Source: Candidatus Omnitrophota bacterium (GTDB lineage Bacteria > Omnitrophota > Gorgyraeia > Gygaellales > Profunditerraquicolaceae). Taken from it: a stretch of DNA of 64,000 nt. The stretch's first letter is position 1. Each line of letters begins with the position of its first letter. The position numbers were made by a program, and so were the translations under genes. The stretch covers positions 557 through 64,556 of the forward strand of contig JAOAET010000014.1 of assembly GCA_026416665.1 (NCBI GenBank). Direction: 5' to 3'. The notes below the pieces were generated by a model, which made no database searches, was not told the DNA's origin, and was given only the letters and a program-made list of their open reading frames with translations. This document shows positions 5-17,372 of the stretch, piece after piece.

Positions 5-1696
5 TTATCCTTCAACATCAAGAGTAACTCGCATTACCTCCTCTGGGGTTGTTAATCCCCCTAAAAGTTTCTGCAATGCTGCTTGCCGCAAGGTTATTAG
101 ACCATCTTTTATGGCCAACTCTCTAATTACATCTGCTGACTCTTTTTTTAAAACCGCCTCTTGAATAGTAGGAGTAACTTTTAATAATTCGTAGATACCT
201 GTTCTCCCCTTATACCCTGTTTGATTACAAACCTTGCAACCTCTTCCTTTCATAAAAGTAACAGGCTTATTAATATAACTATCAAGACCCAAGCTTTTTA
301 ATAATTCTGGTTTAGGCTCATAAGATTCTTTACATTTATCACATACCTTTCGTAATAATCGCTGAGCCAAAACGCCCAAAATTGAGGAAGAAATAAGGAA
401 TGGCTCTACTCCCATATTCATTAACCGTGTAAACGCAGACGGTGAATCATTGGTATGGAGTGTAGAAAAAACCATATGACCAGTCAAAGCTGCTTGTACA
501 GCAATCTCAGCTGTCTCTAAATCGCGTATTTCTCCTACCATAATAATATCCGGATCTTGTCGTAAAAACGACCTTAAAGCTGTAGCAAAAGTAAGCCCGG
601 CAACAGGATTTACTTGCACCTGACGCATTCCAGGGAATTGATATTCTACAGGGTCTTCAACAGTCATGATATTGACATCCTCTTTATTAAGTAACTGTAA
701 AGCAGAGTACAGTGTGGTGGTTTTTCCACTTCCAGTAGGACCAGTTACCAGAAGAATACCATAGGGTGAAGAAATTAATTCTTTAAAAGTAGCTAAAGTC
801 TGCGGAGGAAATCCTAGCGACTCCAGCCCCAGAACAAGTCCACTTTTATCTAGAATTCTTAAAACAATATTTTCTCCGTGCACAGTAGGACAGGTAGAGA
901 CACGAAAGTCTATATCTTTAGAACCAATCTTCATCATGATTCTTCCATCTTGTGGCAGACGTTTTTCCGCAATATCTAACCCCGCCATAATTTTAAAGCG
1001 TGAAGTTATGGCGCTAGCTAAATCTTTAGGAAGCGCGGGTTGTCTATGAAGCATTCCATCTATACGATAACGCACATTAAGGACATTTTCTTCAGGTTCA
1101 ATATGGATATCCGATGCCTTGTTTTGTACAGCTTGAATAATCAAATAATTTACAATTTTTATTATTGGCGCCTCTTCTCCTAATTTATCCGCCTCAACTA
1201 ACTTATTTTTATCAATAGAAGAAACTATCTCTTGTAAACTGCCTGTAGGGCCATAATACTGATCCTGCGCCTTGCGTATTTCAATCTCATCACAAGACAC
1301 CGGTTCAACATTCAGCTTTGTTAACCTTTGAATTTCGTCTATTACATAAACATTTGTAGGGTCAACCATAGCTACCGTAAGAGTGCTCTCTACTATAAAT
1401 ACAGGCATTATTTTATATTTGCGTGCAAAAAATTCGGGTATTAACCGGATTACTTCTGGTTCAATAATATAACTTGAGAGATTAAAAGCGGTAATACCCT
1501 TTTGCATATTAAGACATTTTTCGACAGCCTCTCGACTTGCCCAACCACGGCGCACAATAATCTCCCCAAGTTTTCCCCCTGACATCTTCTGTTCCATTAA
1601 GGCCTCATTAAGTTGTGAGGGGGTAATTAGACCTTTTTCAATAAGAAGCTCTCCTATCTTCTTTGGAATTTCTCCCATTTTTCCCTCATTTATCAA
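5..1696 (-). CDS. GspE/PilB/MshE-family type IV filament assembly ATPase (ATPase 1)
   Basis: Walker A GPTGSGKTT, Asp/His boxes and tetracysteine CDKC...CKVC. N-terminal T2SSE_N domain carries two 24-residue MshEN-like motifs (KIGELLIEKGLITPSQLNEALMEQ and KLGEIIVRRGWASREAVEKCLNMQ) separated by 5 residues. Confidence 0.9.
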   Translation of the reverse strand: MINEGKMGEIPKKIGELLIEKGLITPSQLNEALMEQKMSGGKLGEIIVRRGWASREAVEKCLNMQKGITAFNLSSYIIEPEVIRLIPEFFARKYKIMPVFIVESTLTVAMVDPTNVYVIDEIQRLTKLNVEPVSCDEIEIRKAQDQYYGPTGSLQEIVSSIDKNKLVEADKLGEEAPIIKIVNYLIIQAVQNKASDIHIEPEENVLNVRYRIDGMLHRQPALPKDLASAITSRFKIMAGLDIAEKRLPQDGRIMMKIGSKDIDFRVSTCPTVHGENIVLRILDKSGLVLGLESLGFPPQTLATFKELISSPYGILLVTGPTGSGKTTTLYSALQLLNKEDVNIMTVEDPVEYQFPGMRQVQVNPVAGLTFATALRSFLRQDPDIIMVGEIRDLETAEIAVQAALTGHMVFSTLHTNDSPSAFTRLMNMGVEPFLISSSILGVLAQRLLRKVCDKCKESYEPKPELLKSLGLDSYINKPVTFMKGRGCKVCNQTGYKGRTGIYELLKVTPTIQEAVLKKESADVIRELAIKDGLITLRQAALQKLLGGLTTPEEVMRVTLDVEG

Positions 1697-2839
1697 TTAC
1701 CACAAATTTTCTTTTAACCATTGATCTATCTTTTCCATTCTATCTAACCAAGAACTAACCTCTTCATTTTTTGAACGCCTTTGCCTAGAAGTTTGTATTT
1801 CATTACTGGCTGGTTTCTTTAGCGTTTTTTTATAAACAATTTCCTGTTGTAATTTTCTTTCACTCTTCTTTTGGACTGGTTGTATTATTTCCTTTTCCTG
1901 TTGTTTATTTAGCTTTTGACTTAGTTTATCTTCTTCTCTTTTTTCTTGACCGGTTTGTAGCAATTTAATATCTTTACTTTTTTGTTGTTGAGCAAGACGT
2001 TGTATTTCTTTCTCATATAACTGTTCACGCCTCTGACGAAATAATTCTTCTTCTCTAATCTGCTTTTGCCTTTGTTGCTCTTCTTTCTCCTTTTGTCGTC
2101 TTAATCGTTCTTCCTCTTGTAAACGTTTTTTTCTTTCTTGTTGTTGAATACGGAATTCTGCTTGGGAAGATGTATATTTGACTTTTTCTTCTTCAGGTTT
2201 ACTCACTAATTGTTCTTTTTTTTGCTGTTGAGGTATATTATTTTCAACTTCCTTTATCTTGACTTTTTCTTCTTGCTTATTCTTTGGTTCATATTCTTTT
2301 TTTTGTTCCGTCTTTGTAAGCTGCTTGTATCTCTCATCCTGCTCTAATTTCCTCTTTGCCAACATCTCTTGCCTTTGCGCCTGTCTTTGAGCTTTTAACT
2401 GCTCAATTCTGCCCTCTTTTTCCTGTCTTCTCATAACTAGCTGTTTAAGTTTTTCTTTACGCTGTTGCCTCTGTTGTGCCAATAACTGCTTGCGCCTATT
2501 ATTCTCTTCACGAACCTGCTGTTGCTTCTCTTGCTTTTTTTTATCCACTGCATCTTCTATCTTTAGTTTCTGTTTGGATTTTTCCTGTTTATTTAAAAGC
2601 GCATTCCTACTTTTTCTTTCCTCTATTTGAACTTGTAACTTTTTCCGTTGATTAACTAAATTTTTATAATATTGTTGTAAATCCGAAACCTCCCTTTCCT
2701 GTTGTTGTATTGTTTTTTCTAAGTTCCTGATACGTTCACTCAATTCGTCATATTTAGGTACCTCTGCCAGAGACAAGGAATCTATAAAAAAACAATTCAC
2801 TAGACTAAAAATTCCCATTACTAATAAACGCCTTTTCAT
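1697..2839 (-). CDS. secreted ER/K-rich coiled-coil / single-alpha-helix protein (380 aa)
   Basis: N-terminal signal peptide MKRRLLVMGIFSLVNCFFIDSLSLA. The remaining ~350 residues are almost exclusively K/E/R/Q/L with heptad character. Adjacent to the ATPase with no intergenic gap. Confidence 0.6.
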   Translation of the reverse strand: MKRRLLVMGIFSLVNCFFIDSLSLAEVPKYDELSERIRNLEKTIQQQEREVSDLQQYYKNLVNQRKKLQVQIEERKSRNALLNKQEKSKQKLKIEDAVDKKKQEKQQQVREENNRRKQLLAQQRQQRKEKLKQLVMRRQEKEGRIEQLKAQRQAQRQEMLAKRKLEQDERYKQLTKTEQKKEYEPKNKQEEKVKIKEVENNIPQQQKKEQLVSKPEEEKVKYTSSQAEFRIQQQERKKRLQEEERLRRQKEKEEQQRQKQIREEELFRQRREQLYEKEIQRLAQQQKSKDIKLLQTGQEKREEDKLSQKLNKQQEKEIIQPVQKKSERKLQQEIVYKKTLKKPASNEIQTSRQRRSKNEEVSSWLDRMEKIDQWLKENLW

Positions 2840-2857
2840 TCTTATTCCCTTCTTAAC

Positions 2858-4102
2858 TTAATAAGAAACTGTCCCTTGCAAAACACCTTGATGTTGTTGC
2901 CTTAAGGTTTTTAAAAAACTTTCTTCTGTCTCTAAATTCCTCTCTAAATCTTTCATCTGAATTGCCAGACTTTCTTGTTCTTTAAGTAAATTTTCTGTCT
3001 CGTTCAATATTTTCTCAAACCGTTTATCACACCTTTCTGTAAGCTCTATTTCCATTAGGCGATTACGTTTTTCATTCCAGTCTTTTAACCGCTTCTCTTC
3101 TTTGAGCTGGTTGTATTCTTGCTGTTTTTTTGGTTTTTCGGCCAATTCATATCTTTTTCGTACCTCTCGTATCTGTCTTATCCATGGGCGTTGTTTCAAT
3201 ATTTCTTCTCTTTTCCTCTGACGAATAATTTCCTTTAACTTCTGTTGATGTTCTCTTTTCTTGTAAGTAGTTTCTTCTCTTATTCTTTCAAATTTATTTT
3301 GTCCTTCTTCTTGTTTATTGGCTAACAACTCTTCTCTAAGTTTATCTTCCTCTGTTCTAGTTTGCTTTATTTCCTTGTTCTTACTTTTACTTAAAATATG
3401 TCTTAGCATCTGCCTTTCTCTAATTTTAAGCTTTTTATCAATACGTTTTAACTCTCTTTTTTTTCTTGCTTCTTGCTGCAGTTTATTTTTTCTTTCTTGA
3501 TGTTCCTTTGTCAACAGATTTTTAAGTTTATCTTTTTCTTGTTTTCTTTGGGCCTTCTTTTCCTCTTCAAGTTTTCTCTCAATTTCTCTAGTTATTAAAT
3601 TTTCTTGACGTTGAATTTCCCTTAGAGCTATCTTCTGTGCTTTTTTATCTTTTAACTCTTGGTTATGTTTTAATCTTTCTTCCTTACGTTCTATTGCCAT
3701 TATTTCTTTTCGTTTTCTGACCTCTTCCTTCTTAACACGCTCCTGTTTCCTTCTCTCCTCCTGCTGCTGCCTTAACCTCTCCCTCTCCTGCTTCTTCTTC
3801 TCTATCTCTTGCCTGTATTTGACCTTCTTTTTTTGAAGTTCTTTTTCTTCCTTATCTTTTTTTTCTAATTGCCGCTGCCTTATTTTATTTGTTATTTCCC
3901 TTTCTTTTTCCAGCTGTTCTTTCTTTATTTCTTTGTACCTTGTGCGTAGAAAATTTATTTTTTCTTCTTGTAGTTTTATCTGCTCTTCTAACTGTCTTAC
4001 TGACCTAAGCAATTCTTCTTCGGAATCTGCCCAAGAAGAAAATGAAAGGGTAAAAAAGCCAAGTATAGTGAATATAAATATTAACCATCCTCTATAATTC
4101 AT
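2858..4102 (-). CDS. secreted ER/K-rich coiled-coil / single-alpha-helix protein (414 aa)
   Basis: Signal peptide MNYRGWLIFIFTILGFFTLSFSSWA followed by ~390 residues of an ER/K (KEKE-type) charged helix. Paralogous in composition to the neighbouring genes. Confidence 0.6.
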   Translation of the reverse strand: MNYRGWLIFIFTILGFFTLSFSSWADSEEELLRSVRQLEEQIKLQEEKINFLRTRYKEIKKEQLEKEREITNKIRQRQLEKKDKEEKELQKKKVKYRQEIEKKKQERERLRQQQEERRKQERVKKEEVRKRKEIMAIERKEERLKHNQELKDKKAQKIALREIQRQENLITREIERKLEEEKKAQRKQEKDKLKNLLTKEHQERKNKLQQEARKKRELKRIDKKLKIRERQMLRHILSKSKNKEIKQTRTEEDKLREELLANKQEEGQNKFERIREETTYKKREHQQKLKEIIRQRKREEILKQRPWIRQIREVRKRYELAEKPKKQQEYNQLKEEKRLKDWNEKRNRLMEIELTERCDKRFEKILNETENLLKEQESLAIQMKDLERNLETEESFLKTLRQQHQGVLQGTVSY

Positions 4103-4116
4103 AGGATAATTATTAT

Positions 4117-4803
4117 TTAACCCTTCTTCTCTGTTTCTAATTTTTCCAATATATTATTTAGTTTCTTTATCTTCGCCTCTTCTTTGTTTAACAAGGTTTC
4201 TAGCAAACGTATTTTTCGTTCCAAAGATGTTTTCTTTCTGATAAGAAATTTTAAGGTCTTAGTAGGATTTTCAGTTTGTTCCGCTCTGTTACTAAACAAA
4301 GCCTCTTCGATTACTTTTTGACGAACCGCTACCAAATCTTCAGTTTTCTGGTGGGGTATTGTAGATGGTTTAGATTGTTTACTTCTAATAACTTTTTTTC
4401 TATTCTCTTCGTGTTTCTTCTTTAAAACTTTTGTTGACGTAGGTAGGAATAATTGTTCTTTTTTCACCTCTTTTTCTTTTGTAACTAATTGCTGTCTTGA
4501 TTTAGCAGAAATATCTTTTTCTTTACTGTACTTTTCTTTTTTCTTCTCTTGTTTTGTAAGACATTCGATCTCTTTCTTTTGCTGATTGATAGACAATTCA
4601 AGCTGCTTTCTTTGATAAACGAGATTTTCTAATTTTTTTTGCAGTTGGTTCACATATCTCTGCTGTTGAACAATCTCTTCGGTCAGTTGTTTAATCTTAA
4701 ACTTCAATATTCTGGGATTTTCAGAATTAAAAGCCATGCAATTTACCAAAGCAACCTCAAAAAATAAGCCTATAAATATCAAAATTGTAATATAATTTTT
4801 CAT
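4117..4803 (-). CDS. secreted ER/K-rich coiled-coil protein (228 aa)
   Basis: Signal peptide MKNYITILIFIGLFFEVALVNCMA, then a charged K/E/Q-rich helical sequence. Third member of the tandem triplet. Confidence 0.55.
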   Translation of the reverse strand: MKNYITILIFIGLFFEVALVNCMAFNSENPRILKFKIKQLTEEIVQQQRYVNQLQKKLENLVYQRKQLELSINQQKKEIECLTKQEKKKEKYSKEKDISAKSRQQLVTKEKEVKKEQLFLPTSTKVLKKKHEENRKKVIRSKQSKPSTIPHQKTEDLVAVRQKVIEEALFSNRAEQTENPTKTLKFLIRKKTSLERKIRLLETLLNKEEAKIKKLNNILEKLETEKKG

Positions 4804-4822
4804 TGGTAATTTTTTTTATTTC

Positions 4823-6106
4823 TTAATTAAAACTCTTTTCACCCTTTAGAGTATTTTTCTCTTTTTCTAGCTGTTTGATACGTTCTTCTTCCATATTTAC
4901 AGCTTCTTGTAATTTTTTTGTCTGGTTAATTAATAATTCCTGTTTCTTTAATAGCTCGTTCCACTTAACAGCAAGTTTATTGGCTTTATCCATTTCCTTT
5001 TTCTCTCGTTCAAGTATCCTTATTTCTTCTTCTTCTCTCTCTCTCACAAAATTCCTGCTAATGCCATAGCGTTCTTGCCTAGCTATCTGAGCTATTTTCT
5101 CTTCATTTATAATAGAAGGCGAAACGAAAATAAGTAGTTCAGTTCTTTCTTTAGTATTTAGTTTTGCCTTAAATAAATTACCTAATAAAGGAATATCTCC
5201 CAAAAGAGGAATTTTGGTCTCTGACTTTACATTACGACTGCGCATCAACCCCCCAAGTATCACAGTCTGGTTACTTTTAAGAACCAACTTAGTAGAAGCC
5301 ATTCTTCGGTCAATAATGGGCACAGTATAAGGTATAGATACACCTCCACTGGCAACAGTTAAAGTGTAATCATCTATCTTTTCACTAATTTCAGGATTAA
5401 GCGTCATTAATATATCCCCATTTTCGCTGATAGTTGGCGTTACCTGCAGCATAATACCTACATCTTCAAAATGAATTGTCCAGGTAACTTGAACCGACCC
5501 AGATTCTGAAGTAGTCAGTGTAGGTTCAGCCCAAGGTAACTGCTGAACAATCCTAATTTGTGCTGGACGGTTATTTACTGTTGCTACACGAGGTGCAGAA
5601 AGTACCTCTGTATTATAACTATTGGCTAAAGCATTGATAACAACATTAATATTTTCATCAAAAATAGAAAAGGTAAAAGGTGTTTCCTCTAATGTCCCTC
5701 CTGGCTCGATAGTGTTCTTGTAAGGTATAAGCTGAGTAAGGGATTCAGGAGGAATACCCACTGTACCTGCAGTAGTGCTACCTACTTTAAAATTGCCCAC
5801 TTCTGCTCCCTCAGAATGAAACAACCGCCAATTTACTCCTAATGATTGCTGATCAGTTAACCGCACCTCTACTACCCTTGCCTCAATAAGAACCTGCGCT
5901 GGAGACACATCAATAGCTTCCAGGTACTCACTAATCCTTTTGATATTTTCAGGATAGTCCATTACCACGATAGAATTGGGTTCTTCGCCGTAAAAAACTT
6001 TTCCTTCACTAGAAAGTAAAGCGCGAATATTATTACTTACTTGTTGTGCATAGATATTCACTAATAAAATTGCTGTAATTATAACAATCAAGATGATTTT
6101 TTTCAT
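4823..6106 (-). CDS. short secretin (GspD/PilQ family): one Secretin_N domain plus secretin core, with C-terminal ER/K coiled-coil tail
   Basis: Own signal peptide. N1-like VLIEARVVEV. Secretin core VLSAPRVATVNNRPAQIRIV...IPLLGDIPLLGNLFKAKLNTKERTELLIFVSPSII. Last ~90 aa are an ER/K-rich helix (EREEEEIRILEREKKEMDKANK...). Confidence 0.85.
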   Translation of the reverse strand: MKKIILIVIITAILLVNIYAQQVSNNIRALLSSEGKVFYGEEPNSIVVMDYPENIKRISEYLEAIDVSPAQVLIEARVVEVRLTDQQSLGVNWRLFHSEGAEVGNFKVGSTTAGTVGIPPESLTQLIPYKNTIEPGGTLEETPFTFSIFDENINVVINALANSYNTEVLSAPRVATVNNRPAQIRIVQQLPWAEPTLTTSESGSVQVTWTIHFEDVGIMLQVTPTISENGDILMTLNPEISEKIDDYTLTVASGGVSIPYTVPIIDRRMASTKLVLKSNQTVILGGLMRSRNVKSETKIPLLGDIPLLGNLFKAKLNTKERTELLIFVSPSIINEEKIAQIARQERYGISRNFVREREEEEIRILEREKKEMDKANKLAVKWNELLKKQELLINQTKKLQEAVNMEEERIKQLEKEKNTLKGEKSFN

Positions 6107-6137
6107 TCTTCTACCTCTTTTTAATATTTAATCTTGC

Positions 6138-6992
6138 CTATTTGCTTGAACCACTACTAGCTGTCCCAGTAGTTGTACTAGTAGTAGTCTGCACCTGTGT
6201 TCCCGTTGGAGTAATTACTTCTGTGGTTGTAGTTATCTTTTCGGTAGCGCCTACTACCTCATCCGCCTTAAGATATTTTAGTTTAAATACCCGTGTTTCC
6301 ATTTTATGATCTACTGTCTCTAAATATTGGGCAACGCGTTTTATATTTTCAGGATAATCAATTACCGTCAAAGCATTCTTCTGTGGTACTAACAAAATCT
6401 TTCCTTTTTTGGAGAGTAATGCAAATAAACCAGAAACCTGCTGATTATCTGATGAATCGCTACCTTCTCCTTTATTAGTAGCCGTAGTAGAGACCTCAAA
6501 AAGTTTCTTGGCTTCTATATGCTTTAACACAAAAGTTTGTGTTAATAGGTTTGGCCTTACTCTTAAAAGTGTTCCTTTTTTCTCAAGGATAAGATTACTA
6601 TGTTCGGCAATGGCCTCAAGTGCCTCTTCAAGCGAGATATCCGTAAAACTTGCCGTAATTTTTCCATCTACATCTTCATCTATAAGAATATTCAAATTAT
6701 AATCATGGGCAATAACACGAAACAAATCTCCTAAATTAACATTCCTTAATTCAATAGAATAGCGAGGTGCTTCTGCTTCTAACCGTTTTATTTCCAATAC
6801 CGGTGCATTAGTTAACTCTCTGTTAATCGGTTCTTGGACTTTTTGACCTTGTTGTTGGTTTGGTTGCTGTTGAGTAGGTTGAGATTTATCCTGACCAGCT
6901 GGCTCTTGTGCTTCTATATTTCCGTAATAAAACATACAAAACAAGCATAAAAGATAAATTTTTAATCCCTTATGTCTCTGAAAAACTAACAT
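6138..6992 (-). CDS. separately encoded secretin N0–N1 domain protein with Q-rich N-terminal and T/S-rich C-terminal low-complexity segments
   Basis: Signal peptide. STN/N0-like LGDLFRVIAHDYNLNILIDEDVDGKITASFTDISLEEALEAIAEH. N1-like ALTVIDYPENIKRVAQYLETVD, paralogous to VVMDYPENIKRISEYLEAID of the downstream secretin. Ends TTTTEVITPTGTQVQTTTSTTTGTASSGSSK. Confidence 0.6.
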   Translation of the reverse strand: MLVFQRHKGLKIYLLCLFCMFYYGNIEAQEPAGQDKSQPTQQQPNQQQGQKVQEPINRELTNAPVLEIKRLEAEAPRYSIELRNVNLGDLFRVIAHDYNLNILIDEDVDGKITASFTDISLEEALEAIAEHSNLILEKKGTLLRVRPNLLTQTFVLKHIEAKKLFEVSTTATNKGEGSDSSDNQQVSGLFALLSKKGKILLVPQKNALTVIDYPENIKRVAQYLETVDHKMETRVFKLKYLKADEVVGATEKITTTTEVITPTGTQVQTTTSTTTGTASSGSSK

Positions 6993-7004
6993 CCTATCTC
7001 CTTC

Positions 7005-9017
7005 TTACCGCCGTGTAGATAAAAATACACGTATAACCTCATCAATTAGTCGGATATCCGCTATATCTTGTATCCCAAGAATATCTAGGCTATCATTTGT
7101 TATTTTTAGCGCATAACAACGTTTGTTTGGGAAGCTTAAAAAATCCGCTTGTTGTTTCTTCTCTTCTTTTAATGCCAAACCAAATTTTTGGGAAAGCATT
7201 TTCTTAAATGCCTCAGCATAAGAAACAGCATCGTTGAGTGTTTTCCATTTAATCTGTAACAGAAATAAGCGATTACCGTTATTATGTCTGTATATTGAAA
7301 TTTTATCGTTTTGCCAAGCACCACAGATTTCTTCTGCTTCCTCTTTGGGCAGAATCTGGCGTAAAGTCATTAAAAGGTAAAACTCACCTATACTATCTTC
7401 ATATTCTTTATGCCAGCCTTCCGGAAAAGTTAATACGTTGACCTCTTCCTTCTGTTGGGCAGATTTATCTGCTAAAGACTGTTCAGTAACCGAGCGATAT
7501 GGATGTAACAGTTGCTGTGTGGTAGAAGGCGGTTTGGCAAACAATTTATCCAAATCATTCCATTGTTTATCACTAAGGTAATATTGAATATAATTAGCAC
7601 CATATCCATATAAACTGTATTGCAACTTATCTATTGTCTCTTTATTGTCTTTTAATATCTTATTCTCGATTAAATCAAAGATATCCCCCAAAGATTTGAA
7701 ACTCTTTCCATCCTTACTTAATATATACTCTAGTTGAATAGCTTTTGCCTCGCCTTCTAAAAGCATATTTAAGGCAGTGATATTATCTTGCGAAAGCTTA
7801 TCTTTATTTATTCCAAGTATCTCTGGTGAATAGTAAGTATGTTGATAAGCATGTACGAGTTCATGAACTAAAACCGTTTCTGCTAACTCAGGACTAAGCC
7901 ACTGCCCTAAGAAAATCTTTTTCCTCTGTTTACTATACAAACCAGCAACAGAAGCTATTAAAGAATCAACCAACATCTCACGGTAATTTATTGCCTGCGG
8001 AACTAATCCCAACCATTTCAGAATCTCTTCTTGAATAGCAAAATATTCTGTATTATATTCTTTTTCAAGGTCCTCTAAAACATAAGAACGTAAACTTACT
8101 CTATCTATAAATTCAATCCCAAAATCCTCAAATGGCTTCCATCCACGTAACTGAGTAATCCATTGAATTAAGGTAGGAATCTTCTGTTTTATTTTTTCTC
8201 TCTCACCTAATACCTCTTGTTGAATATCTGAAGGCACATCAAATTTCTCTGTTGGATTTTGTTTCTGATAATGATTAAGTTGTAAAAAATACATCCCATT
8301 GATTTTTCCTTCAATTCGCGCCAAAACTGTAAAAAAATCTGTAGTATCTATCCAGATAGTCTTAGTAAGTTGTCCGCTTATACCTTTTTCTTCTAAGATC
8401 TTTGGGTTAATTGTGTAACGTAAAACATAACACTTCTTTCCAAAACGTTCTTCTATTGCCAGTATTTCTTTAGTAACAGGTTCTGCCTCTTCTTGTTGGA
8501 CATAAAAAAGAGATTGTAAAAACTGATACGTCAATATTTCATTTTTATCTTTATCAGATATTTGCAGCTTTTCTCTTTGCCATTTTCTTTTTTGCGCATC
8601 CCAAACAAAAGAAAGACCGTCGTAATCATACCCTTGCGCCCAGTCAGCAGTAGAGATGCCATAAGGCACAGTTAAAGAAACACTGATTTTGGTATCTGTT
8701 TTTATATTTTCGAGTCTATCTATCAGATCCTTACTATTTACTCTTATATGAAACAACTCATGTCCCAACCAAACATCAGAAATAACTATAAACTTAGGAG
8801 TTTGCAAAAACGCACTGGCTGTTTTATATAAAAGATAGTCTGAATCTATTTGGGTATTTAATGGTAACCATGAAGTATTTTTACCTCTCTGCTGTTGTTG
8901 GGCTATCTCACTTAAATATTGTCTCAGTTGCACCGCCTCCCACCCTAACAAAAAAGGTAAGCATAAGAGTAAGTAGAATTTTCTTTTAATTTTTTCTTTT
9001 ATGGGCTTAACCATCAA
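7005..9017 (-). CDS. secreted HExxH zinc-metallopeptidase-like protein (MA-clan, gluzincin-like), 670 aa
   Basis: N-terminal hydrophobic signal or anchor (FYLLLCLPFLLGW). HELVHAYQH motif followed ~30 aa later by LLEGEAKAI, a candidate third Glu ligand. No recognisable named peptidase family. Confidence 0.45.
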   Translation of the reverse strand: MMVKPIKEKIKRKFYLLLCLPFLLGWEAVQLRQYLSEIAQQQQRGKNTSWLPLNTQIDSDYLLYKTASAFLQTPKFIVISDVWLGHELFHIRVNSKDLIDRLENIKTDTKISVSLTVPYGISTADWAQGYDYDGLSFVWDAQKRKWQREKLQISDKDKNEILTYQFLQSLFYVQQEEAEPVTKEILAIEERFGKKCYVLRYTINPKILEEKGISGQLTKTIWIDTTDFFTVLARIEGKINGMYFLQLNHYQKQNPTEKFDVPSDIQQEVLGEREKIKQKIPTLIQWITQLRGWKPFEDFGIEFIDRVSLRSYVLEDLEKEYNTEYFAIQEEILKWLGLVPQAINYREMLVDSLIASVAGLYSKQRKKIFLGQWLSPELAETVLVHELVHAYQHTYYSPEILGINKDKLSQDNITALNMLLEGEAKAIQLEYILSKDGKSFKSLGDIFDLIENKILKDNKETIDKLQYSLYGYGANYIQYYLSDKQWNDLDKLFAKPPSTTQQLLHPYRSVTEQSLADKSAQQKEEVNVLTFPEGWHKEYEDSIGEFYLLMTLRQILPKEEAEEICGAWQNDKISIYRHNNGNRLFLLQIKWKTLNDAVSYAEAFKKMLSQKFGLALKEEKKQQADFLSFPNKRCYALKITNDSLDILGIQDIADIRLIDEVIRVFLSTRR

Positions 9018-9436
9018 TTCTTATTATTTTCCTCTTGTGACTGAGACTTCAAAATACTGCTTACTTTTATAACGTATTCTCCAACACTATCTTTTAACCT
9101 AATTTCTTCTGGTTTGATATTGGTAATCTCTTTATTATCTACATAATCGCCTATTTTCAATATCCTCCCATTGACAATAACACAGCTTTTTCCAGCATCA
9201 GGCGCATATATAATGGCAGTAATATTAAATCCATCTAAAGGAATAGCCGTTCCTTGTTCCTGAAATAATTTTTCTTCGTCACTGGTAAGAAAAGGATTCT
9301 CTTTACCTTTTAAGATAATAGGCCCTTTCTCCACAGTAACCTCAGTTTGAGTAAAAGAAAAAACCATAAGTAAATTAGAAAAAGTTAAAGTTGTGGTTAC
9401 ACCGATAATCTTTATAAGAAGACTTAATCTAGCCAA
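9014..9436 (-). CDS. PilP/GspC-like small periplasmic protein
   Basis: N-terminal membrane anchor. C-terminal beta-rich segment with VIVNGRILKIGDYV, resembling PilP/GspC secretin-interacting domains. 4-nt overlap with the downstream gene. Confidence 0.35.
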   Translation of the reverse strand: MARLSLLIKIIGVTTTLTFSNLLMVFSFTQTEVTVEKGPIILKGKENPFLTSDEEKLFQEQGTAIPLDGFNITAIIYAPDAGKSCVIVNGRILKIGDYVDNKEITNIKPEEIRLKDSVGEYVIKVSSILKSQSQEENNKN

Positions 9437-9620
9437 GATGCCCCCTCATTATTTCTTTTAGTTTTTTTAAGTCATCCTCAGTGTATTGACGCCAGCGGTT
9501 AATAAGATTTCTTCGTGCTTTAGGAAAAATTCCTTTTTTCTCGTAGCGGAACAGGGTTTGTTTAGAGATTCCAAGTCTCTCAGCTACTTCCTGTGCAGTA
9601 AACATTTTGCTCTCACTCAT
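9429..9620 (-). CDS. small helix-turn-helix DNA-binding protein (MerR/excisionase HTH_17-like)
   Basis: FTAQEVAERLGISKQTLFRYEKKGIFP is a canonical HTH. 63 aa. SD-like AAGGTAGG upstream of the ATG. Confidence 0.6.
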   Translation of the reverse strand: MSESKMFTAQEVAERLGISKQTLFRYEKKGIFPKARRNLINRWRQYTEDDLKKLKEIMRGHLG

Positions 9621-9721
9621 ATAACCTACCTTTCTGAGAAAAATTACTGTTTTATTTTCTTTAAAATAGCATTTTACCAGTATCCCTTATTGTTTAATAT
9701 TCTACTTCTGTTAAAACTGAT

Positions 9722-9747
9722 AATACTTGATAGTATTTGATAGTATT
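9722..9747. repeat. operator-like repeat: inverted repeat AATACT-tgat-AGTATT followed by a tandem direct repeat of TGATAGTATT (x2)
   Basis: Read directly from the sequence in the 185-nt intergenic region upstream of the HTH gene. Confidence 0.5.
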
Positions 9748-9805
9748 GTAAACTACCAGATATAAATTGTCAAGATTTAATTTTTTATAATCCCTTTATT
9801 TTTAT

Positions 9806-10639
9806 TTAGTTAGAAAAAAGACGCACTAATAATTTTCTATCCTCTGCCGTCAGATTATTAATTCGAATCCCTAGCAAATAATTTTTATAGTTTACCATCG
9901 TGCTGCGCAGGATTTCTCCTTTTGCCTCTATTACACAAGTTTCAAACCCACATTTTTCGAACCCATAGAGTGTAAAGGAAACATATATATGAGGTGGTAA
10001 AAATAAAGGCATCTCTGCTCCTAAAGCAGAACAATCCGCCGAAACATTTAAAACTTTTCCTTCAATAACTCTGGGAGCAAACAATTTAACTTCTTCATCA
10101 ACAAGAGTAAGCTGTATTTTACCAGAAACAGGTAATCTATCTGCCTCTCGCCATTGACTAACCCCACTTAAAGGATTATGCTTAATAAGATATCTAGTGA
10201 TTTCAAAATTCTGTTCATCAAGTTTGTAATAGAGATCTATAGCAGCTAAAATTTCGTGAGTAGTAGCAACCACCGGCTCAATCGTTAATCCTGTAATTTT
10301 GGAAACATCGTCAATAAGAGCTGCGTTTAAAGGATTAGCACATGCTAAAAACAAAGTATTGCCTACCTTATATAAGGGAAAAACCTTATTTTGTAAACAA
10401 TAATTTTCTTCTAAAAGATGAAGCACATGTGGCGAAATTGCATAATCAGAAATACGTACAAATGCAAAACCACCCATTTGTGCAAAGAAACAAGCCAGCT
10501 GTTCTTCTGATAAAAACCCTAATTTTACCAGACATATCCAAATAGATTTTTTACTGGTGGTGGCTTCAAGGCGAGCAACATCAAGCTGCCATTGTTCAAT
10601 CCATTTGTTCTCTAATAACTCTTTTTCGAGATCTAACAT
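9806..10639 (-). CDS. T2SSE_N (GspE N-terminal-like) domain fused to a PilZ c-di-GMP-binding domain
   Basis: N-terminal region is T2SSE_N-like (LVKLGFLSEEQLACFFAQ...VFPLYKVGNTLFLACANPLN). C-terminal region has canonical PilZ motifs RxxxR (READR, residues 164–168) and DxSxxG (DCSALG, 202–207). Confidence 0.6.
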   Translation of the reverse strand: MLDLEKELLENKWIEQWQLDVARLEATTSKKSIWICLVKLGFLSEEQLACFFAQMGGFAFVRISDYAISPHVLHLLEENYCLQNKVFPLYKVGNTLFLACANPLNAALIDDVSKITGLTIEPVVATTHEILAAIDLYYKLDEQNFEITRYLIKHNPLSGVSQWREADRLPVSGKIQLTLVDEEVKLFAPRVIEGKVLNVSADCSALGAEMPLFLPPHIYVSFTLYGFEKCGFETCVIEAKGEILRSTMVNYKNYLLGIRINNLTAEDRKLLVRLFSN

Positions 10640-10648
10640 AAATTAAAG

Positions 10649-11875
10649 TTACTTCTTAAATAACTGTATCATATTCCATAATGGTAAAAAAATAGCCAGT
10701 GCCATACCCATTACTACCACCCCCAAAACAGCTGTCATCAAGGGTTCAATTAATGCCGTGAGATTTTTTACCGTAGTTCGCACTTCCAGCCCGAAGTATT
10801 CACATAAAGAATCTAACATCAAAGGTAATTGTCCACTTTTTTCTCCTACCGACACCATATAACCAACTAACCTTGGAAAAAACTTACTGTTAAGGATACC
10901 TCCAGATATACCCTTTCCATCTGCAACTGCTCGTTTAATAATATTAACCTCATTCTCTAACACAACATTACCAATCGTCATTCCTACAATCTCTAACGTC
11001 CTTAGAATAGGTAAACCAGATTGGTATAAAACATTTAACATACTGGCAAACCGTAACATAGTTATTTTAGTATAAAGTTTACCAAAGATAGGGATTTTAA
11101 ACTTTAAGCTATCCCAAAAATTACGCCCAAAAGCAGTTTTAATAAAAACGCGCCATAATAATGAAAATACACCAATACCTGCTATAACCGCATACCAATA
11201 ATGGCGTAAAATGTGTCCAAATAAAATCATTATTTGTGTGGGTAAAGGCAGTTGGGTGTTGGCCTGGGCATAAATTTTGGCAAACTGGGGCATAACAAAT
11301 ACTGTCAATACCACCACCGCCACAATCATAGCAATTACTACCATAATAGGATATCGTAAAGCCGCTGATATATTGGAACGTGTCTCTAAATCTTCTTCTA
11401 ACATCTCTGCCAAACGCATCAGAACCTTATCTAAAATTCCTGCACTCTCCCCCGCTATCACGGTATTTACATAAAGTTCAGAGAATATACCTGGATGCTT
11501 TGCCAATGCCTGAGATAAACTTGTTCCTGCCTCTACATCGCGTAAAATTTCTTGTAGCGCTTTTTTTAATGCAAGATCTTCTGCCTGTTCAGCAAGTACT
11601 CCCAATCCTTCTAAAATAGGCACCGCTGCTTTAATGATAGTGGCAAATTGCCGAGTGAATATCACCAATGTGCGCATATCCACTGTGCCGTGGGTTTTCT
11701 TACCTGCTCCAGAAACACCTTTTTTAATTTGTGTTTTTGCCTTAAAAGTGATACTCACAGGTAAATATCCTTTTTTTGCTAATTCAGTAGTTAAAGCCAT
11801 TTCACTGGTAGCTTCCATTTCCCCTTTCACGTATTTTCCCTGACTATCTACTGCTTTATATATATACCAAGTCAT
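10649..11875 (-). CDS. PilC/GspF inner-membrane platform protein
   Basis: 408 aa. Typical N-terminus (YKAVDSQGKYVKGEMEA), two T2SSF repeats and TM helices. Confidence 0.85.
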   Translation of the reverse strand: MTWYIYKAVDSQGKYVKGEMEATSEMALTTELAKKGYLPVSITFKAKTQIKKGVSGAGKKTHGTVDMRTLVIFTRQFATIIKAAVPILEGLGVLAEQAEDLALKKALQEILRDVEAGTSLSQALAKHPGIFSELYVNTVIAGESAGILDKVLMRLAEMLEEDLETRSNISAALRYPIMVVIAMIVAVVVLTVFVMPQFAKIYAQANTQLPLPTQIMILFGHILRHYWYAVIAGIGVFSLLWRVFIKTAFGRNFWDSLKFKIPIFGKLYTKITMLRFASMLNVLYQSGLPILRTLEIVGMTIGNVVLENEVNIIKRAVADGKGISGGILNSKFFPRLVGYMVSVGEKSGQLPLMLDSLCEYFGLEVRTTVKNLTALIEPLMTAVLGVVVMGMALAIFLPLWNMIQLFKK

Positions 11876-11898
11876 ACCCTCTACCCTTAAATCTTATT

Positions 11899-13716
11899 CT
11901 ACTTTCTATTACTTAACCAATTGGCAATGCGCTTTTCATAAGCAGCTATCTGAGATTCATCCACTTTTACTGGTTGCTGAGATAAAGTACTTGCAGGCGG
12001 AGAAGGAATTGCTGGACCAACAAGAATTTCCTCAGAAGTTGATCGTAAATCAAGATGTTCTTCGCAAACCCTAGCTACTTCTTCCAAAGTGGTTATACCT
12101 TGCAATACCTTTGATAAACCATCTTCACTTAGGAGTTTCATCCCTTTTGCTTGCGATTTTTTACGTAACTGCACAGTAGATGCACCCGCAATAATCATTT
12201 CTCTAATCTCATCATCCACCACCATTAGTTCAAATAATCCGGTTCGTCCGCGATAACCTGTCCCTTTACAATAATCACAACCCTTTCCCCTGTATAAACG
12301 AATATTCTTCTTATGGCTTAATCCCCATTTTTCCAAAACTGCCTTCGTTGGTTCATATGACTCCTTACAATGTTCACAGATAACCCTTACCAACCTTTGT
12401 GCCATAACTCCAATAAGAGAAGCTGAGATTAAAAAGGACTCCACTCCCATATTAACTAAACGCGTTACTGCTGAGGGTGCATCATTGGTGTGCAAAGTAG
12501 AAAAGACTAGATGTCCAGTTAAGGCAGCCTGAATAGCAATAACTGCTGTCTCTAAATCTCTTATCTCTCCGACCATAATTACATCAGGATCTTGACGCAG
12601 AATTGCCCTTAAACCATTTGCGAAGGTAATTCCTGCCTTAACATTTACCTGTATTTGTCGAATCAGTCCGAGACGGTATTCTACAGGGTCTTCAATTGTA
12701 ATGATATTACGGTCAATAGTGTTGATGCGCATAAGGGCTGAATATAAAGTGGTAGTCTTTCCACTACCTGTTGGACCAGTGGAGAGAATAATTCCGTACG
12801 GTCGCGAGATAAGCTCTTCATACCGCTTAAGCATATCTTGGGTAGAAAACCCTAATTTTTCCAGCCCAATCATTACTGAGGCAGTATCCAAAAGCCGAAT
12901 CACCACATTCTCTCCATAAATAGTGGGAATGGTTGAAACACGAAAATCAATAATTTTATCATCTATCTTTGACTGAAAATGGCCATCCTGGGGAATTCTA
13001 CTTTCCGCTATATCCATACCTGCCAACACCTTAATGCGTGAGATAATTGCTCCTTCCCAATCTTTAGGGGGAGGCGGTATTTCATGAAGGATACCGTCAA
13101 TTCTAAAACGAATTCTTAGAATTTCTTGTTCTGGTTCAATATGTATATCCGATGCCCTGTCACGAACCGCTTGTGAGATAATTAAATCTACTAATTTTAT
13201 AATTGAAGCTCCTTCTTGAGCAGATTTGGCAGTGGCAGAGGAAACTGCTACTTGAGCATAGTCAGTCATAAGCTTTTCGTCTTGGGGCCTGCGTTTATAC
13301 ACTTTAATACGCGCCTCTTCTATATCTTCGGGACTGGCCAAATAGGGCTCTACATGAAGACCAGTTTGCATCTTTATTTGGTCAATAGAAAAAATATCCC
13401 CTGGATCCACCATTGCTACGTGAAGCACTCCTTGCTCCAAACGAAATGGTACAGACTGGGTCTCAGTAGCTAAGGATTCAGGCATACGTTCTATCATTTC
13501 TTCGGGTGCTTTAACAACATCTAATTTAACGAAGTTAAATCCAAGTTTTCTGGCAATGGCCTCATAGAGTTTGTGGCGATTGACCAACCCCATCTCTACC
13601 ACTACCTTTACTAGTGGACGTCTCAGTTTCTTAATCTCCTCTTGTGCCTTATCTAAATTTTCCTGACTGATTAATTCCTCCGAGATAAGTAGTTGGGCTA
13701 ACTCCATGTCGTTCAT
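11899..13716 (-). CDS. GspE/PilB-family type IV filament assembly ATPase (ATPase 2)
   Basis: Walker A GPTGSGKTTT and tetracysteine CEHC...CDYC. N-terminal T2SSE_N domain without the MshEN motif. Confidence 0.9.
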   Translation of the reverse strand: MNDMELAQLLISEELISQENLDKAQEEIKKLRRPLVKVVVEMGLVNRHKLYEAIARKLGFNFVKLDVVKAPEEMIERMPESLATETQSVPFRLEQGVLHVAMVDPGDIFSIDQIKMQTGLHVEPYLASPEDIEEARIKVYKRRPQDEKLMTDYAQVAVSSATAKSAQEGASIIKLVDLIISQAVRDRASDIHIEPEQEILRIRFRIDGILHEIPPPPKDWEGAIISRIKVLAGMDIAESRIPQDGHFQSKIDDKIIDFRVSTIPTIYGENVVIRLLDTASVMIGLEKLGFSTQDMLKRYEELISRPYGIILSTGPTGSGKTTTLYSALMRINTIDRNIITIEDPVEYRLGLIRQIQVNVKAGITFANGLRAILRQDPDVIMVGEIRDLETAVIAIQAALTGHLVFSTLHTNDAPSAVTRLVNMGVESFLISASLIGVMAQRLVRVICEHCKESYEPTKAVLEKWGLSHKKNIRLYRGKGCDYCKGTGYRGRTGLFELMVVDDEIREMIIAGASTVQLRKKSQAKGMKLLSEDGLSKVLQGITTLEEVARVCEEHLDLRSTSEEILVGPAIPSPPASTLSQQPVKVDESQIAAYEKRIANWLSNRK

Positions 13717-14357
13717 TTCTTCTGTCCTTCTTGCAATTGTATAATCCAGCTCTTTACTAAATTTGCATCAGGAGCATCGCCAGAGATATTAAGATATTGT
13801 TGGTAGTATTTAATTGCCTTATCTTTGTTACCCAAATAATTTTCATATAAAACAGCCAGATTATAACAGGCATCTTTATCTAAAGGATTTAAATTAAGTA
13901 CGAGTTTAAACGCCTCTTCTGCCTGAATAAACTGCCCTTGGAGTAAGTACTCGATACCCAAATTATAGTAATAGTCAGGGTTTGATGTTTCTTTTTTTAA
14001 TTCTGTAAGATAATAAGTAAGGGCTTTATCCATTCTTTTCTTCTCTTCTTCGGTTGCTTTATGCGAAAAGTCTTTCTGCGTTGTTTCTGACTTAATAGGC
14101 AACTCCGCTGGCATCAATGCTGATAGGCCTTGTATCTCTTGCAGTAAAATTTCTACCCGATTAAACTCAAGATTTGCTGCGGTATAGTTACCCTCTTGAA
14201 TATAAATCTTACCCTTCTCATAATGTTGTTGCGCTTCAGCAAGTTTCTGTTGCTTTAATTGCCAAAAATCTTCTGTAGCAATAACTAACACATTGAAAGA
14301 TAGTAAAAATAATCCAATAATTAAAATTATCCACTTTTTTATTAGCATCTTTTGCAT
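13713..14357 (-). CDS. TPR-repeat protein with N-terminal membrane anchor (PilF/pilotin-like?)
   Basis: Signal/anchor followed by TPR-like repeats (AANLEFNRVEILLQ..., YYYNLGIEYLLQGQFIQAEEAFKLVLNLNP, ACYNLAVLYENYLGNKDKAIKYYQQYL). Confidence 0.5.
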   Translation of the reverse strand: MQKMLIKKWIILIIGLFLLSFNVLVIATEDFWQLKQQKLAEAQQHYEKGKIYIQEGNYTAANLEFNRVEILLQEIQGLSALMPAELPIKSETTQKDFSHKATEEEKKRMDKALTYYLTELKKETSNPDYYYNLGIEYLLQGQFIQAEEAFKLVLNLNPLDKDACYNLAVLYENYLGNKDKAIKYYQQYLNISGDAPDANLVKSWIIQLQEGQKK

Positions 14358-14360
14358 AGA

Positions 14361-16872: not shown

Positions 16873-16907
16873 AAATATACCCTTTTGCTATCATTTTCTA
16901 TAAAAAC

Positions 16908-17366: not shown

Positions 17367-17372
17367 ATAATC

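What the first reader, a model, noticed from the sequence alone, without database searches (positions are those of the whole stretch)
4826..5089. Secretin 1 carries a C-terminal ER/K coiled-coil tail resembling its three downstream neighbours
Secretins normally end with a short S-domain that binds a pilotin. Here the last ~90 residues (EREEEEIRILEREKKEMDKANKLAVKWNELLKKQELLINQTKKLQEAVNMEEERIKQLEKEKNTLKGEKSFN) are a charged helix of the same composition as the adjacent secreted ER/K proteins. This suggests a coiled-coil docking interaction between the secretin and those proteins. It would be a pilotin-independent or accessory-protein recruitment mode.
Basis: partly seen in the sequence, partly recalled or inferred. 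Interest (0 to 1): 0.6.

Follow-up and report, generated by a model that had tools for sequence, protein, structure and literature searches.

The report
Secretin tail shares module with neighbours
An outer-membrane pore protein (secretin) of an uncultivated Omnitrophota bacterium ends in a long conserved helix that is evolutionarily related to the ends of the charged proteins encoded next to it, which suggests, but does not prove, that these unannotated proteins dock onto the pore.

Summary
Secretin 1 (4823..6106, minus strand, 427 aa) has 94 residues after its Pfam Secretin domain. This tail is 52% E/K/R/Q, against 19% for the rest of the protein. AlphaFold2 predicts a short helix, a turn and one 76-residue helix at pLDDT 90-97.

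The tail is a family trait of Omnitrophota secretins and aligns without gaps across more than 100 homologues. It has two parts:
- Residues 334-366 align with the start of the GspD S-domain.
- The distal ~70 residues are a lineage-specific heptad helix.

Reciprocal HMM searches show that the distal helix is homologous to the C-terminal ~70 residues of the adjacent "type A" ER/K proteins. Reversed-sequence decoys gave no hits.

All the ER/K neighbours share a signal peptide and a conserved N-terminal module. Across 56 informative loci, a full-length tail and an adjacent N-module gene co-occur (32/4/1/19). Genes are always ordered secretin, 0-2 type A, then one terminal protein.

The best reading is a coiled-coil docking site for these proteins, confidence about 0.45. 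No binding is shown, pilotin independence cannot be judged, and four loci keep the tail without a linked partner gene. I rate it a new variant of a known kind.

The parts
4823..6106 (-). Secretin 1 (427 aa): signal peptide, N-domain, secretin beta-barrel and C-terminal tail
   Evidence: Pfam Secretin 2.5e-44 at residues 159-333 and weak Secretin_N at 15-71. Foldseek matches PilQ, GspD and InvG at E down to 4e-14. 100% identical to NCBI hypothetical protein N2606_00855, Candidatus Omnitrophica.
5009..5107 (-). Proximal tail, residues 334-366: the part that aligns with the start of the GspD S-domain (helix, YG turn, start of the long helix)
   Evidence: Gap-free phmmer alignment to the S-domain start of ETEC and V. 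cholerae GspD, with QERY matching QRKY. PilQ chains stop aligning at residues 333-340. The first ~36 tail-HMM positions are found in every family member, including short-tailed ones.
4826..5044 (-). Distal tail module, residues 355-427: lineage-specific heptad helix with a conserved seam at L385, L392, L399 and L413. It overlaps the proximal segment at residues 355-366.
   Evidence: AF2 predicts one helix 351-426 at pLDDT 90-97. An HMM of type A C-modules from other loci hits residues 355-420 at E 5e-5. Columns E368, L385, L392 and L413 are nearly invariant across tails and type A modules.
4117..4803 (-). ER/K protein 1 (228 aa), type A: signal peptide, N-module (residues 29-84, nt 4552..4719), disordered linker, C-module (about residues 160-228, nt 4120..4326)
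   Evidence: N-module HMM 5.9e-15. The C-module is weak against the tail HMM (E 0.06, high bias) but aligns by eye. AF2: helix 6-93, disordered 94-128, helices 129-151 and 156-203 of the mature protein.
2858..4102 (-). ER/K protein 2 (414 aa), type A: signal peptide, N-module (nt 3848..4024), ER/K spacer, C-module (residues 345-411, nt 2870..3070)
   Evidence: Tail HMM hits residues 345-409 at E 1.3e-4. Type A C-module HMM 4e-4 and N-module HMM 1.3e-8. No Pfam family.
1697..2839 (-). ER/K protein 3 (380 aa), type B: signal peptide, N-module (nt 2588..2755), ER/K spacer, Trp-rich C-end ...VSSWLDRMEKIDQWLKENLW (nt 1700..1786)
   Evidence: N-module HMM 3.2e-15 and type B C-end HMM 4.9e-14. No Pfam family.
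6138..6992 (-). Separate N0/N1 piece of the secretin (284 aa, own signal peptide, Thr/Ser-rich C-end)
   Evidence: Pfam Secretin_N 4e-10 and weak STN/GspD_N0. NCBIfam matches the N-terminal parts of PilQ and GspD. Fused ~700-aa versions exist in homologues.
5..1696 (-). PilB/GspE-type assembly ATPase that closes the secretin-ER/K-ATPase block
   Evidence: NCBIfam PilB 2e-197 and GspE 7e-186, with an MshEN c-di-GMP motif. It holds the same position in the related loci.

Best explanation
The tail is a two-part C-terminal extension of a secretin from an Omnitrophota type IV pilus / type II secretion-like machine.

Anatomy:
- Residues 334-366 correspond to the first helices of the GspD-type S-domain. 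In solved secretins these pack on the outside of the neighbouring subunit's barrel, just under the outer membrane.
- The short pilotin-binding alpha-12 helix is absent. Instead the second helix continues for about 60 more residues as a conserved heptad helix, the "tail module".
- The genes between the secretin and the assembly ATPase encode a modular protein family. Each member has a cleavable signal peptide, a conserved ~55-residue N-module and a low-hydrophobicity ER/K spacer of very variable length. The C-terminus is one of three kinds: a paralogue of the tail module (type A), a short Trp-rich end (type B), or nothing (short form, type S).

Proposed mechanism (inferred, not shown): the tail module projects from each secretin subunit into the periplasm and is the docking helix for the N-module of these proteins, forming an antiparallel coiled coil. 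Because type A proteins repeat the tail module at their own C-terminus, they could pass the docking site on. That would give the chain secretin tail, type A, type A, type B, in the same order as the genes. The result would be a ring of long charged tethers or spacers around the pore.

What is shown: the anatomy, the conservation, the homology between the tail and the type A C-module, the co-occurrence and the gene order.

What is inferred: physical binding, orientation, periplasmic location and any chain.
For: - Conservation: the tail aligns gap-free across 20 and 106 homologues, with M341, L385, L399 and E400 nearly invariant.
- Homology: the tail-only HMM hits the C-termini of downstream proteins in L006 (2e-12), L002 (3e-11), L001 (5e-10 and 5e-8) and the window's 414-aa protein (1.3e-4). 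The best reversed decoy scored 0.13.
- Reciprocal test: an HMM of five type A C-modules hits 17 secretin tails at 1e-10 to 4e-3, with no decoy hits.
- Ancient paralogy rather than recent copying: the window tail is 19-21% identical to its own neighbours' modules but 19-44% (mostly about 30%) identical to other secretins' tails.
- Specificity: a profile of the module searched against 1.84 billion representatives gave only 28 hits. 26 of them are secretin C-termini or proteins with signal peptide, N-module, ER/K spacer and C-module, and the match is always at the extreme C-terminus.
- Co-occurrence in 56 informative non-redundant loci: full tail with N-module gene 32, full tail without 4, short tail with 1, short tail without 19. 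Fisher p = 4e-10, not corrected for phylogeny. A rough NJ tree shows about three separate joint losses.
- In loci scored as having only type B or type S genes (11 and 12 of the 34 loci with ER/K genes), the N-module is the only module shared with the A-containing loci, yet the secretin still keeps the full tail.
- Gene order is always secretin, 0-2 type A, then one terminal type B or S gene, and never B before A.
- Cis versions exist: L103 (144-aa ER/K-rich tail) and L014 (196-aa tail) have no separate ER/K gene.
- AF2 of the 228-aa type A protein gives two confident helical arms (pLDDT 95-98, pTM 0.59). Its nearest PDB shapes are antiparallel coiled-coil hairpins such as PcsB, EnvC, the SMC arm and p85 iSH2.
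Against: - No interaction was computed or measured. Only single-chain AF2 was available, and model coordinates could not be inspected.
- The hairpin reading rests on non-significant Foldseek hits (E >= 1).
- Four loci keep a full-length tail with no N-module gene in the fetched locus (up to 10 kb each side): L009, L107, L112 and L113. The tail therefore must have, or can have, a role without a linked partner.
- The co-occurrence is phylogenetically clustered, with one large clade lacking both, so the Fisher p overstates independence.
- The window's own 228-aa protein matches the module only weakly (E 0.06).
- N-module versus tail-module homology is not established (hhalign probability 26%).
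- Signal-peptide cleavage and periplasmic location are read by eye only.
- ER/K spacers up to about 1,100 aa (L007) are far longer than a periplasm if fully helical.
Confidence: 0.45

Rival explanations
1. The tail works within the secretin ring only. It would be an elongated S-domain that staples neighbouring subunits, aids multimer assembly or membrane targeting, or sets the position of the pore. The ER/K genes would have arisen by duplication of the secretin 3' end and would do something else. The shared module would then reflect common descent, not binding.
For: - The proximal tail is homologous to the GspD S-domain. That domain contacts the neighbouring monomer and matters for assembly (PMC6532946, read).
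- L009, L107, L112 and L113 keep the full tail without a linked ER/K gene.
- Short-tailed relatives still keep 48-74 residues of charged helix.
- Other phyla attach unrelated extensions to secretin C-termini.
Against: - It does not explain why the distal third of the tail is lost or diverges in step with loss of the adjacent genes in about three lineages.
- It does not explain why both paralogous modules stay conserved at the extreme C-terminus.
- It does not explain the fixed order of type A before type B or S.
Confidence: 0.27
2. The ER/K proteins are cargo or surface components exported through this secretin. The shared C-terminal module would be a recognition or hand-over element.
For: - All carry N-terminal signal-peptide-like sequences with AXA-type sites.
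- From general knowledge, substrates are sometimes encoded inside T2SS clusters.
- The very long ER/K spacers (up to 1,221 aa) fit an extracellular fibre better than a periplasmic strut.
Against: - In all solved secretins the C-terminus lies on the outside of the barrel, away from the lumen through which cargo passes (structures matched; geometry from PMC6532946).
- No enzyme or adhesin domain was found, even in the long members.
- The strict modular order and one-to-one module counts look structural.
Confidence: 0.13
3. The resemblance is only low-complexity composition in an AT-rich genome, with no specific function.
For: - The genome is 33-40% G+C across the window, about 36-37% on average, and E, K and N are common.
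- HMMER bias terms are high for these sequences.
Against: - The alignments are gap-free and position-specifically conserved across about 100 sequences.
- Reciprocal HMM hits occur with no reversed-decoy hit below E 0.1.
- Only 28 hits were found in 1.84 billion proteins, despite the abundance of coiled coils.
- ER/K-rich windows are confined to these four genes in the window.
Confidence: 0.03

Closest known systems
GspD-type S-domain and pilotin binding (PulD-PulS, GspD-AspS, EpsD-EpsS) of type II secretion secretins
   Same: It is a C-terminal helical extension directly after the last barrel strand. Residues 334-366 align gap-free with the GspD S-domain start. In both cases an accessory protein is recruited, or proposed to be recruited, at the secretin C-terminus.
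   Different: There is no short alpha-12 helix with the Ala-Phe signature. About 60 residues of conserved heptad helix take its place. The candidate partners are signal-peptide ER/K proteins with a coiled-coil N-module, not small lipoproteins. The module is also present on the partners themselves.
Secretin-associated scaffolds and belts: GspB/OutB (PMC9239104), TsaP on PilQ (PDB 6ve2), the DR_1364 belt on the Deinococcus secretin (PMC10828601)
   Same: These are accessory proteins that decorate or anchor the periphery of a secretin ring and are encoded near it.
   Different: They use globular domains (HR, LysM or beta-rich) that bind N-domains or the barrel. Here the proposed contact is helix to helix on the C-terminal tail. 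No peptidoglycan-binding or other Pfam domain is present.
Long charged or coiled periplasmic helices: TolA domain II, Braun lipoprotein Lpp, EnvC/PcsB coiled-coil hairpins; eukaryotic ER/K single alpha-helices
   Same: Highly charged helical segments are used as spacers or reach-across elements. The AF2 model of the type A protein most resembles antiparallel hairpins such as EnvC and PcsB, although those hits are non-significant.
   Different: No sequence homology was detected. The secretin tail has a conserved leucine seam, so it is not an ER/K single helix. Helicity of the long spacers was not tested: the short linker in the 228-aa protein is predicted disordered.
Omnitrophota type-4a pilus gene clusters (Seymour et al. 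2023, PMC10066038)
   Same: It is the same kind of locus: PilB-type ATPases, GspF/PilC, a PilM-like protein, pilins and secretins. That paper reports such clusters in nearly all Omnitrophota and links them to attachment to host cells.
   Different: The paper does not contain the words "secretin" or "coiled". The tail module and the ER/K family are annotated only as hypothetical proteins.

Membership tests
Secretin superfamily (Pfam PF00263) | Secretin domain above the gathering score, and a secretin barrel fold | tested here: met
   151.3 bits against a cutoff of 27.5. Foldseek matches PilQ, GspD and InvG at E 4e-14 to 1e-8.
T2SS secretin GspD (NCBIfam TIGR02517, equivalog) | Whole-protein score at or above the curated cutoff of 351 | tested here: not met
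   222 bits. The N0/N1 part is also on a separate polypeptide.
T4P secretin PilQ (NCBIfam TIGR02515) | Whole-protein score at or above the curated cutoff of 284 | tested here: not met
   195 bits. PilQ chains in the PDB end where this protein's tail begins.
GspD-type S-domain | Helix-turn-helix immediately after the barrel, alignable with GspD | tested here: met
   Query residues 334-366 align with the S-domain start of ETEC, EPEC and V. cholerae GspD, E 3e-10 to 5e-8 for the C-terminal 130 aa. AF2 shows helix 335-347, a turn, then a helix.
GspD-type S-domain | Short solvent-exposed alpha-12 with a conserved Ala-Phe, the pilotin-binding site (PMC6532946) | tested here: not met
   There is no Ala-Phe in residues 334-427 (sequence). 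The region is one continuous 76-residue helix.
GspD-type S-domain | Binds a small outer-membrane lipoprotein (pilotin) | not testable with these tools
   No binding assay or multimer model was available. The nearby 140-aa GspB/PilP-like ORF lacks a lipobox Cys in this window, though its orthologues have one.
ER/K single alpha-helix (SAH) domain | High E/K/R content with i to i+4 E-K/R pairs | tested here: met
   The tail is 46% E+K+R with 0.13 E-to-K/R (i+3 or i+4) pairs per residue. The neighbours are 36-48%.
ER/K single alpha-helix (SAH) domain | No hydrophobic seam, so the helix is stable as a monomer | tested here: not met
   Conserved leucines at 385, 392, 399 and 413, spaced in heptads, are nearly invariant across tails and type A modules.
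Coiled-coil docking pair (tail module with N-module) | Physical hetero-oligomerisation of the two helices | not testable with these tools
   Support is indirect only: co-occurrence 32/4/1/19, gene order, cis-extended tails, and a hairpin-like AF2 model of a type A protein.
Shared tail / type A C-terminal module (defined here) | Reciprocal profile hits between secretin tails and the C-termini of adjacent ER/K proteins, absent from decoys | tested here: met
   The window tail scores 5e-5, the window 414-aa protein 1.3e-4 and 4e-4, and the window 228-aa protein is only marginal (0.06).

The most novel reading that the evidence does not exclude
Each subunit of the secretin ring nucleates a head-to-tail coiled-coil chain. 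The secretin tail binds the N-module of a type A protein. That protein's own tail-like C-module binds the next N-module. The chain ends with a type B protein whose Trp-rich C-end anchors or caps it. This would be a previously undescribed, genetically colinear ER/K superstructure around the pilus or secretion pore of ultra-small, possibly host-attached bacteria. It could act as a spacer, cage or tether of tunable length.
Probability: 0.15. Interest if true: 0.75.

Novelty: new variant of a known kind. Interest (0 to 1): 0.52.

Why it matters
Secretins are the outer-membrane gates of type II and III secretion, type IV pili and filamentous phage export. How they are targeted, stabilised and coupled to the rest of the machine differs between systems and is only partly understood.

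This work defines three things:
- A conserved C-terminal module on the secretins of a whole uncultivated phylum.
- An unannotated family of adjacent signal-peptide ER/K proteins.
- An evolutionary and genomic link between the two.

Published work holds type IV pili to be nearly universal in Omnitrophota and links them to attachment to hosts (PMC10066038). A lineage-specific structural add-on to that machine is therefore a concrete target for AF-Multimer, cryo-ET and proteomics.

It also gives a clean example of a coiled-coil module shared between an outer-membrane channel and its neighbours, with gene order that may mirror assembly order.

Tried and rejected
- Pfam and NCBIfam on the three ER/K proteins and on nine long relatives gave nothing beyond generic coiled-coil noise.
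- Four literature searches (Omnitrophota plus secretin; pili or T2SS; S-domain plus pilotin plus coiled-coil; Omnitrophota plus pili plus predatory) found no description of this tail or family.
- An N-module profile searched with the search for homologous proteins returned only three short unannotated proteins, so it said nothing about fusions or wider distribution.
- Profile-profile comparison of the N-module with the tail module gave 26% probability. Homology between them is not claimed.
- Foldseek of the type A model against the PDB gave no significant hit. It was used only as a description of shape.
- Recent duplication or gene conversion between the tail and the neighbours is rejected. 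The window tail is 19-21% identical to its own neighbours' modules, against mostly about 30% and up to 44% for orthologous tails.
- A pure composition artefact is rejected.
- The idea that the partner of the tail is the type A C-module (a like-with-like pairing) is set aside as the general rule. 23 of the 34 loci with ER/K genes were scored as having no type A gene, yet they keep the full tail.
- A multimer prediction could not be run. A read-through translation of the secretin plus the next gene is not possible, because the two ORFs are in different frames.

Full report
**1. What is at the coordinates**

The stretch 4826..5089 (minus strand) is the last 88 codons of ORF 4823..6106, a 427-aa protein.
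- Pfam places a Secretin domain at residues 159-333 (2.5e-44) and a weak Secretin_N at 15-71.
- An AlphaFold2 model built on 106 homologues has the secretin barrel fold. Foldseek matches PilQ, GspD and InvG at E down to 4e-14.
- The protein is identical to an NCBI "hypothetical protein" from a Candidatus Omnitrophica MAG.

After the last barrel strand there are 94 more residues.
- They are 46% E+K+R and 52% E+K+R+Q, against 19% EKRQ for residues 1-333 and 26% for all large ORFs in the window.
- 94-residue windows this charged occur only in this tail and in the three ORFs immediately downstream.
- AF2 predicts helix 335-347, a turn at YGIS, and a single helix 351-426 at pLDDT 90-97.

**2. The tail is a family trait with two parts**

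The 120 best database relatives, all from Omnitrophota or unnamed metagenomes, cover 84-100% of the query, mostly 91-99%. Twenty and then 106 of them align through the tail without gaps. M341, L385, L399 and E400 are nearly invariant.

The two parts are:
- **Proximal part.** Against solved structures, T2SS GspD chains align with the query up to residues 349-366. That covers the start of their S-domain, with QERY matching QRKY. PilQ chains end at query residues 333-340. Residues 334-366 are therefore the counterpart of the first S-domain helices.
- **Distal part.** The pilotin-binding alpha-12 helix with its Ala-Phe signature (PMC6532946) is absent. In its place the helix runs on for about 60 residues with a conserved leucine seam at 385, 392, 399 and 413. 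This is a heptad helix, not an ER/K single alpha-helix.

**3. The neighbours**

The three downstream ORFs (228, 414 and 380 aa) have no Pfam family. Comparison with 39 related loci from species-representative genomes and 61 from metagenomes shows that they belong to one modular family.

Every member has:
- a signal-peptide-like N-terminus with an AXA-type site;
- a conserved ~55-residue N-module (consensus roughly ELE..I..LE..I..QE..V..LR.RYE.ILKRK..LQ.FI..EK.KIE);
- a low-hydrophobicity ER/K spacer that ranges from almost nothing to about 1,100 residues.

The C-terminus comes in three forms:
- **Type A:** a ~70-residue module.
- **Type B:** a short Trp-rich end (V..WLDK.EK.D.W.....LW).
- **Type S:** nothing further (short form).

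In the window the order is type A (228 aa), type A (414 aa), type B (380 aa), followed by a PilB/GspE ATPase.

**4. The resemblance is homology**

- An HMM built only from 78 secretin tails hits the C-termini of downstream proteins in other loci at 2e-12, 3e-11, 5e-10 and 5e-8.
- The same HMM hits the window's 414-aa protein at 1.3e-4 (residues 345-409). The best hit in a reversed-sequence copy of the same database is 0.13.
- Conversely, an HMM of five type A C-modules from other loci hits 17 secretin tails (1e-10 to 4e-3). These include the window's tail (5e-5, residues 355-420). There were no decoy hits.
- The window's 228-aa protein is only marginal by HMM (0.06) but aligns by eye.
- The window tail is 19-21% identical to its own neighbours' modules and mostly about 30% (up to 44%) identical to other secretins' tails. 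The two lineages of the module are therefore old paralogues, each conserved.
- A profile of the module searched against 1.84 billion representative proteins found only 28 hits. 26 are secretin C-termini or type A proteins, and the match always lies at the extreme C-terminus. All carry no name or "hypothetical protein".

**5. Co-variation and gene order**

Synteny is conserved in this order:
1. a 670-aa HExxH protein and/or a ~140-aa GspB/PilP-like protein;
2. a separate N0/N1 secretin piece;
3. the secretin with its tail;
4. 0-3 ER/K genes;
5. the ATPase;
6. pilins.

Co-occurrence in 56 informative non-redundant loci:

| | N-module gene directly downstream | No N-module gene |
|---|---|---|
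| Full tail module | 32 | 4 |
| Truncated or divergent tail | 1 | 19 |

- Fisher p is 4e-10. This is not corrected for relatedness.
- A rough NJ tree of the barrel shows one large clade plus about two smaller lineages that lack both.
- The four exceptions with a full tail and no partner gene in the fetched locus are L009, L107, L112 and L113. L113 has only 1.5 kb of downstream sequence.
- Gene order is always 0-2 type A genes followed by exactly one type B or S gene. B never precedes A. The counts as scored are S 12, B 11, AB 5, AAB 3, the window itself scored SAB (AAB if its weak 228-aa C-module is accepted), and A alone twice on cut contigs. At least three of the S calls (L083, L087, L128) are type B variants by eye.
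- Some secretins with no separate ER/K gene carry long charged extensions in cis. L103 has 144 aa (ER/K-rich) and L014 has 196 aa.

**6. Most likely mechanism**

In loci scored as having only type B or S genes, the N-module is the only module shared with the A-containing loci, yet the secretin still keeps the full tail. The simplest reading is therefore that the tail module is the docking helix for the N-module.

AF2 of the window's 228-aa type A protein gives two confident helical arms separated by a disordered linker (pLDDT 95-98, pTM 0.59). Its closest PDB shapes are antiparallel coiled-coil hairpins (PcsB, EnvC, SMC arm, p85 iSH2), but all at non-significant E-values, and I could not inspect contacts. 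If the N-module packs on the type A C-module in cis, it could pack on the homologous secretin tail in trans. Type A proteins could then relay the site, giving a chain colinear with gene order.

By analogy with solved secretins, the C-terminus lies outside the barrel beneath the outer membrane (PMC6532946). Such a structure would therefore be peripheral and periplasmic.

All of this is inference. I put about 0.45 on the general docking idea and about 0.15 on the chain.

**7. Rivals**

- **(a) An elongated S-domain acting only within the ring.** The ER/K genes would be descendants of a 3'-end duplication. The four exceptions and the known S-domain role favour this. The joint losses and fixed gene order argue against it (0.27).
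- **(b) The ER/K proteins are exported cargo or surface fibres.** The signal peptides and very long spacers favour this. The tail's position outside the lumen and the absence of any functional domain argue against it (0.13).
- **(c) Composition artefact.** Rejected (0.03).

**8. Comparison and novelty**

The closest known arrangement is the GspD S-domain with its pilotin.
- Membership of the S-domain is met for the proximal helices. It is not met for alpha-12.
- GspD and PilQ equivalog cutoffs are not reached (222 against 351, and 195 against 284).
- Long C-terminal extensions are not unique to this lineage. Planctomycetota secretins carry ~113-120-aa TPR-like tails, and one Nitrospirota secretin has a 233-aa tail with TPR-like and ER/K stretches.
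- What is specific here is the module shared between the pore and a family of adjacent proteins, and its co-variation with them.
- The Omnitrophota survey that describes these pilus clusters does not mention it.

I rate it a new variant of a known kind, of moderate interest. Pilotin independence cannot be assessed with these tools.

Noticed in passing
window 6138..6992 (-) and 4823..6106 (-): The secretin is split into two genes, each with its own signal peptide. One encodes an N0/N1 piece ending in a Thr/Ser-rich stretch. The other encodes the N-domain, barrel and tail. Most related Omnitrophota loci share the split. A minority encode a single ~700-aa fused protein (P0037, P0038, P0066, P0071, L012, L031).
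   Followed up: partly
window 7005..9017 (-): A 670-aa signal-peptide protein with an HELVH (HExxH) motif and weak DUF6782/Peptidase_M91 hits. It is conserved just upstream of the N0/N1 piece in several loci (L004, L006, L007, L019, L025). It could be a protease or cargo of the system.
   Followed up: no
window 9014..9436 (-): A 140-aa protein with T2SSB/CdsD_C (GspB/PilP HR-like) hits. Its orthologues in other loci have lipoboxes (FSGC, FAGC, LSGC), but the window copy has no cysteine.
   Followed up: no
window 5..19756 (-): One supercluster holds two secretins (the second, 15463..16872, has only a 32-aa tail) and two PilB/GspE ATPases with MshEN c-di-GMP motifs. It also holds one GspF, a PilM-like 597-aa protein, GspM- and GspC-like proteins, a TPR protein (13713..14357) and a TM plus coiled-coil 370-aa protein (14361..15473). 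A stand-alone MshEN-domain protein lies at 9806..10639.
   Followed up: partly
L014 3957..5534; L103 34..1353; also L028, L030, L125: Omnitrophota secretins with no separate ER/K gene but long charged or coiled tails in cis (196 aa in L014, 144 aa and ER/K-rich in L103). They look like covalent versions of tail plus partner.
   Followed up: partly
P0130 / P0148 (436 aa, metagenome): A protein that joins the secretin N0/N1 piece directly to a type A ER/K protein (part of the N-module, spacer and C-module), with the barrel missing. It could be a deletion product or an assembly chimera.
   Followed up: no
L058, L060, L065, L068, L072, L077 (Planctomycetota); L050 (Nitrospirota): Distant secretins in other phyla carry their own long C-terminal extensions. 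Planctomycetota have ~113-120-aa TPR-like tails. One Nitrospirota secretin has a 233-aa tail with TPR-like and ER/K stretches. The diversity of secretin C-termini in uncultivated phyla seems under-described.
   Followed up: no
window 1700..1786 (-) and type B orthologues: Type B proteins end in a conserved Trp-rich amphipathic segment that finishes with L/F/V-W at the C-terminus (V..WLDK.EK.D.W.....LW). Its target, whether a membrane surface or a peptide-binding domain such as the nearby TPR protein, is unknown.
   Followed up: no
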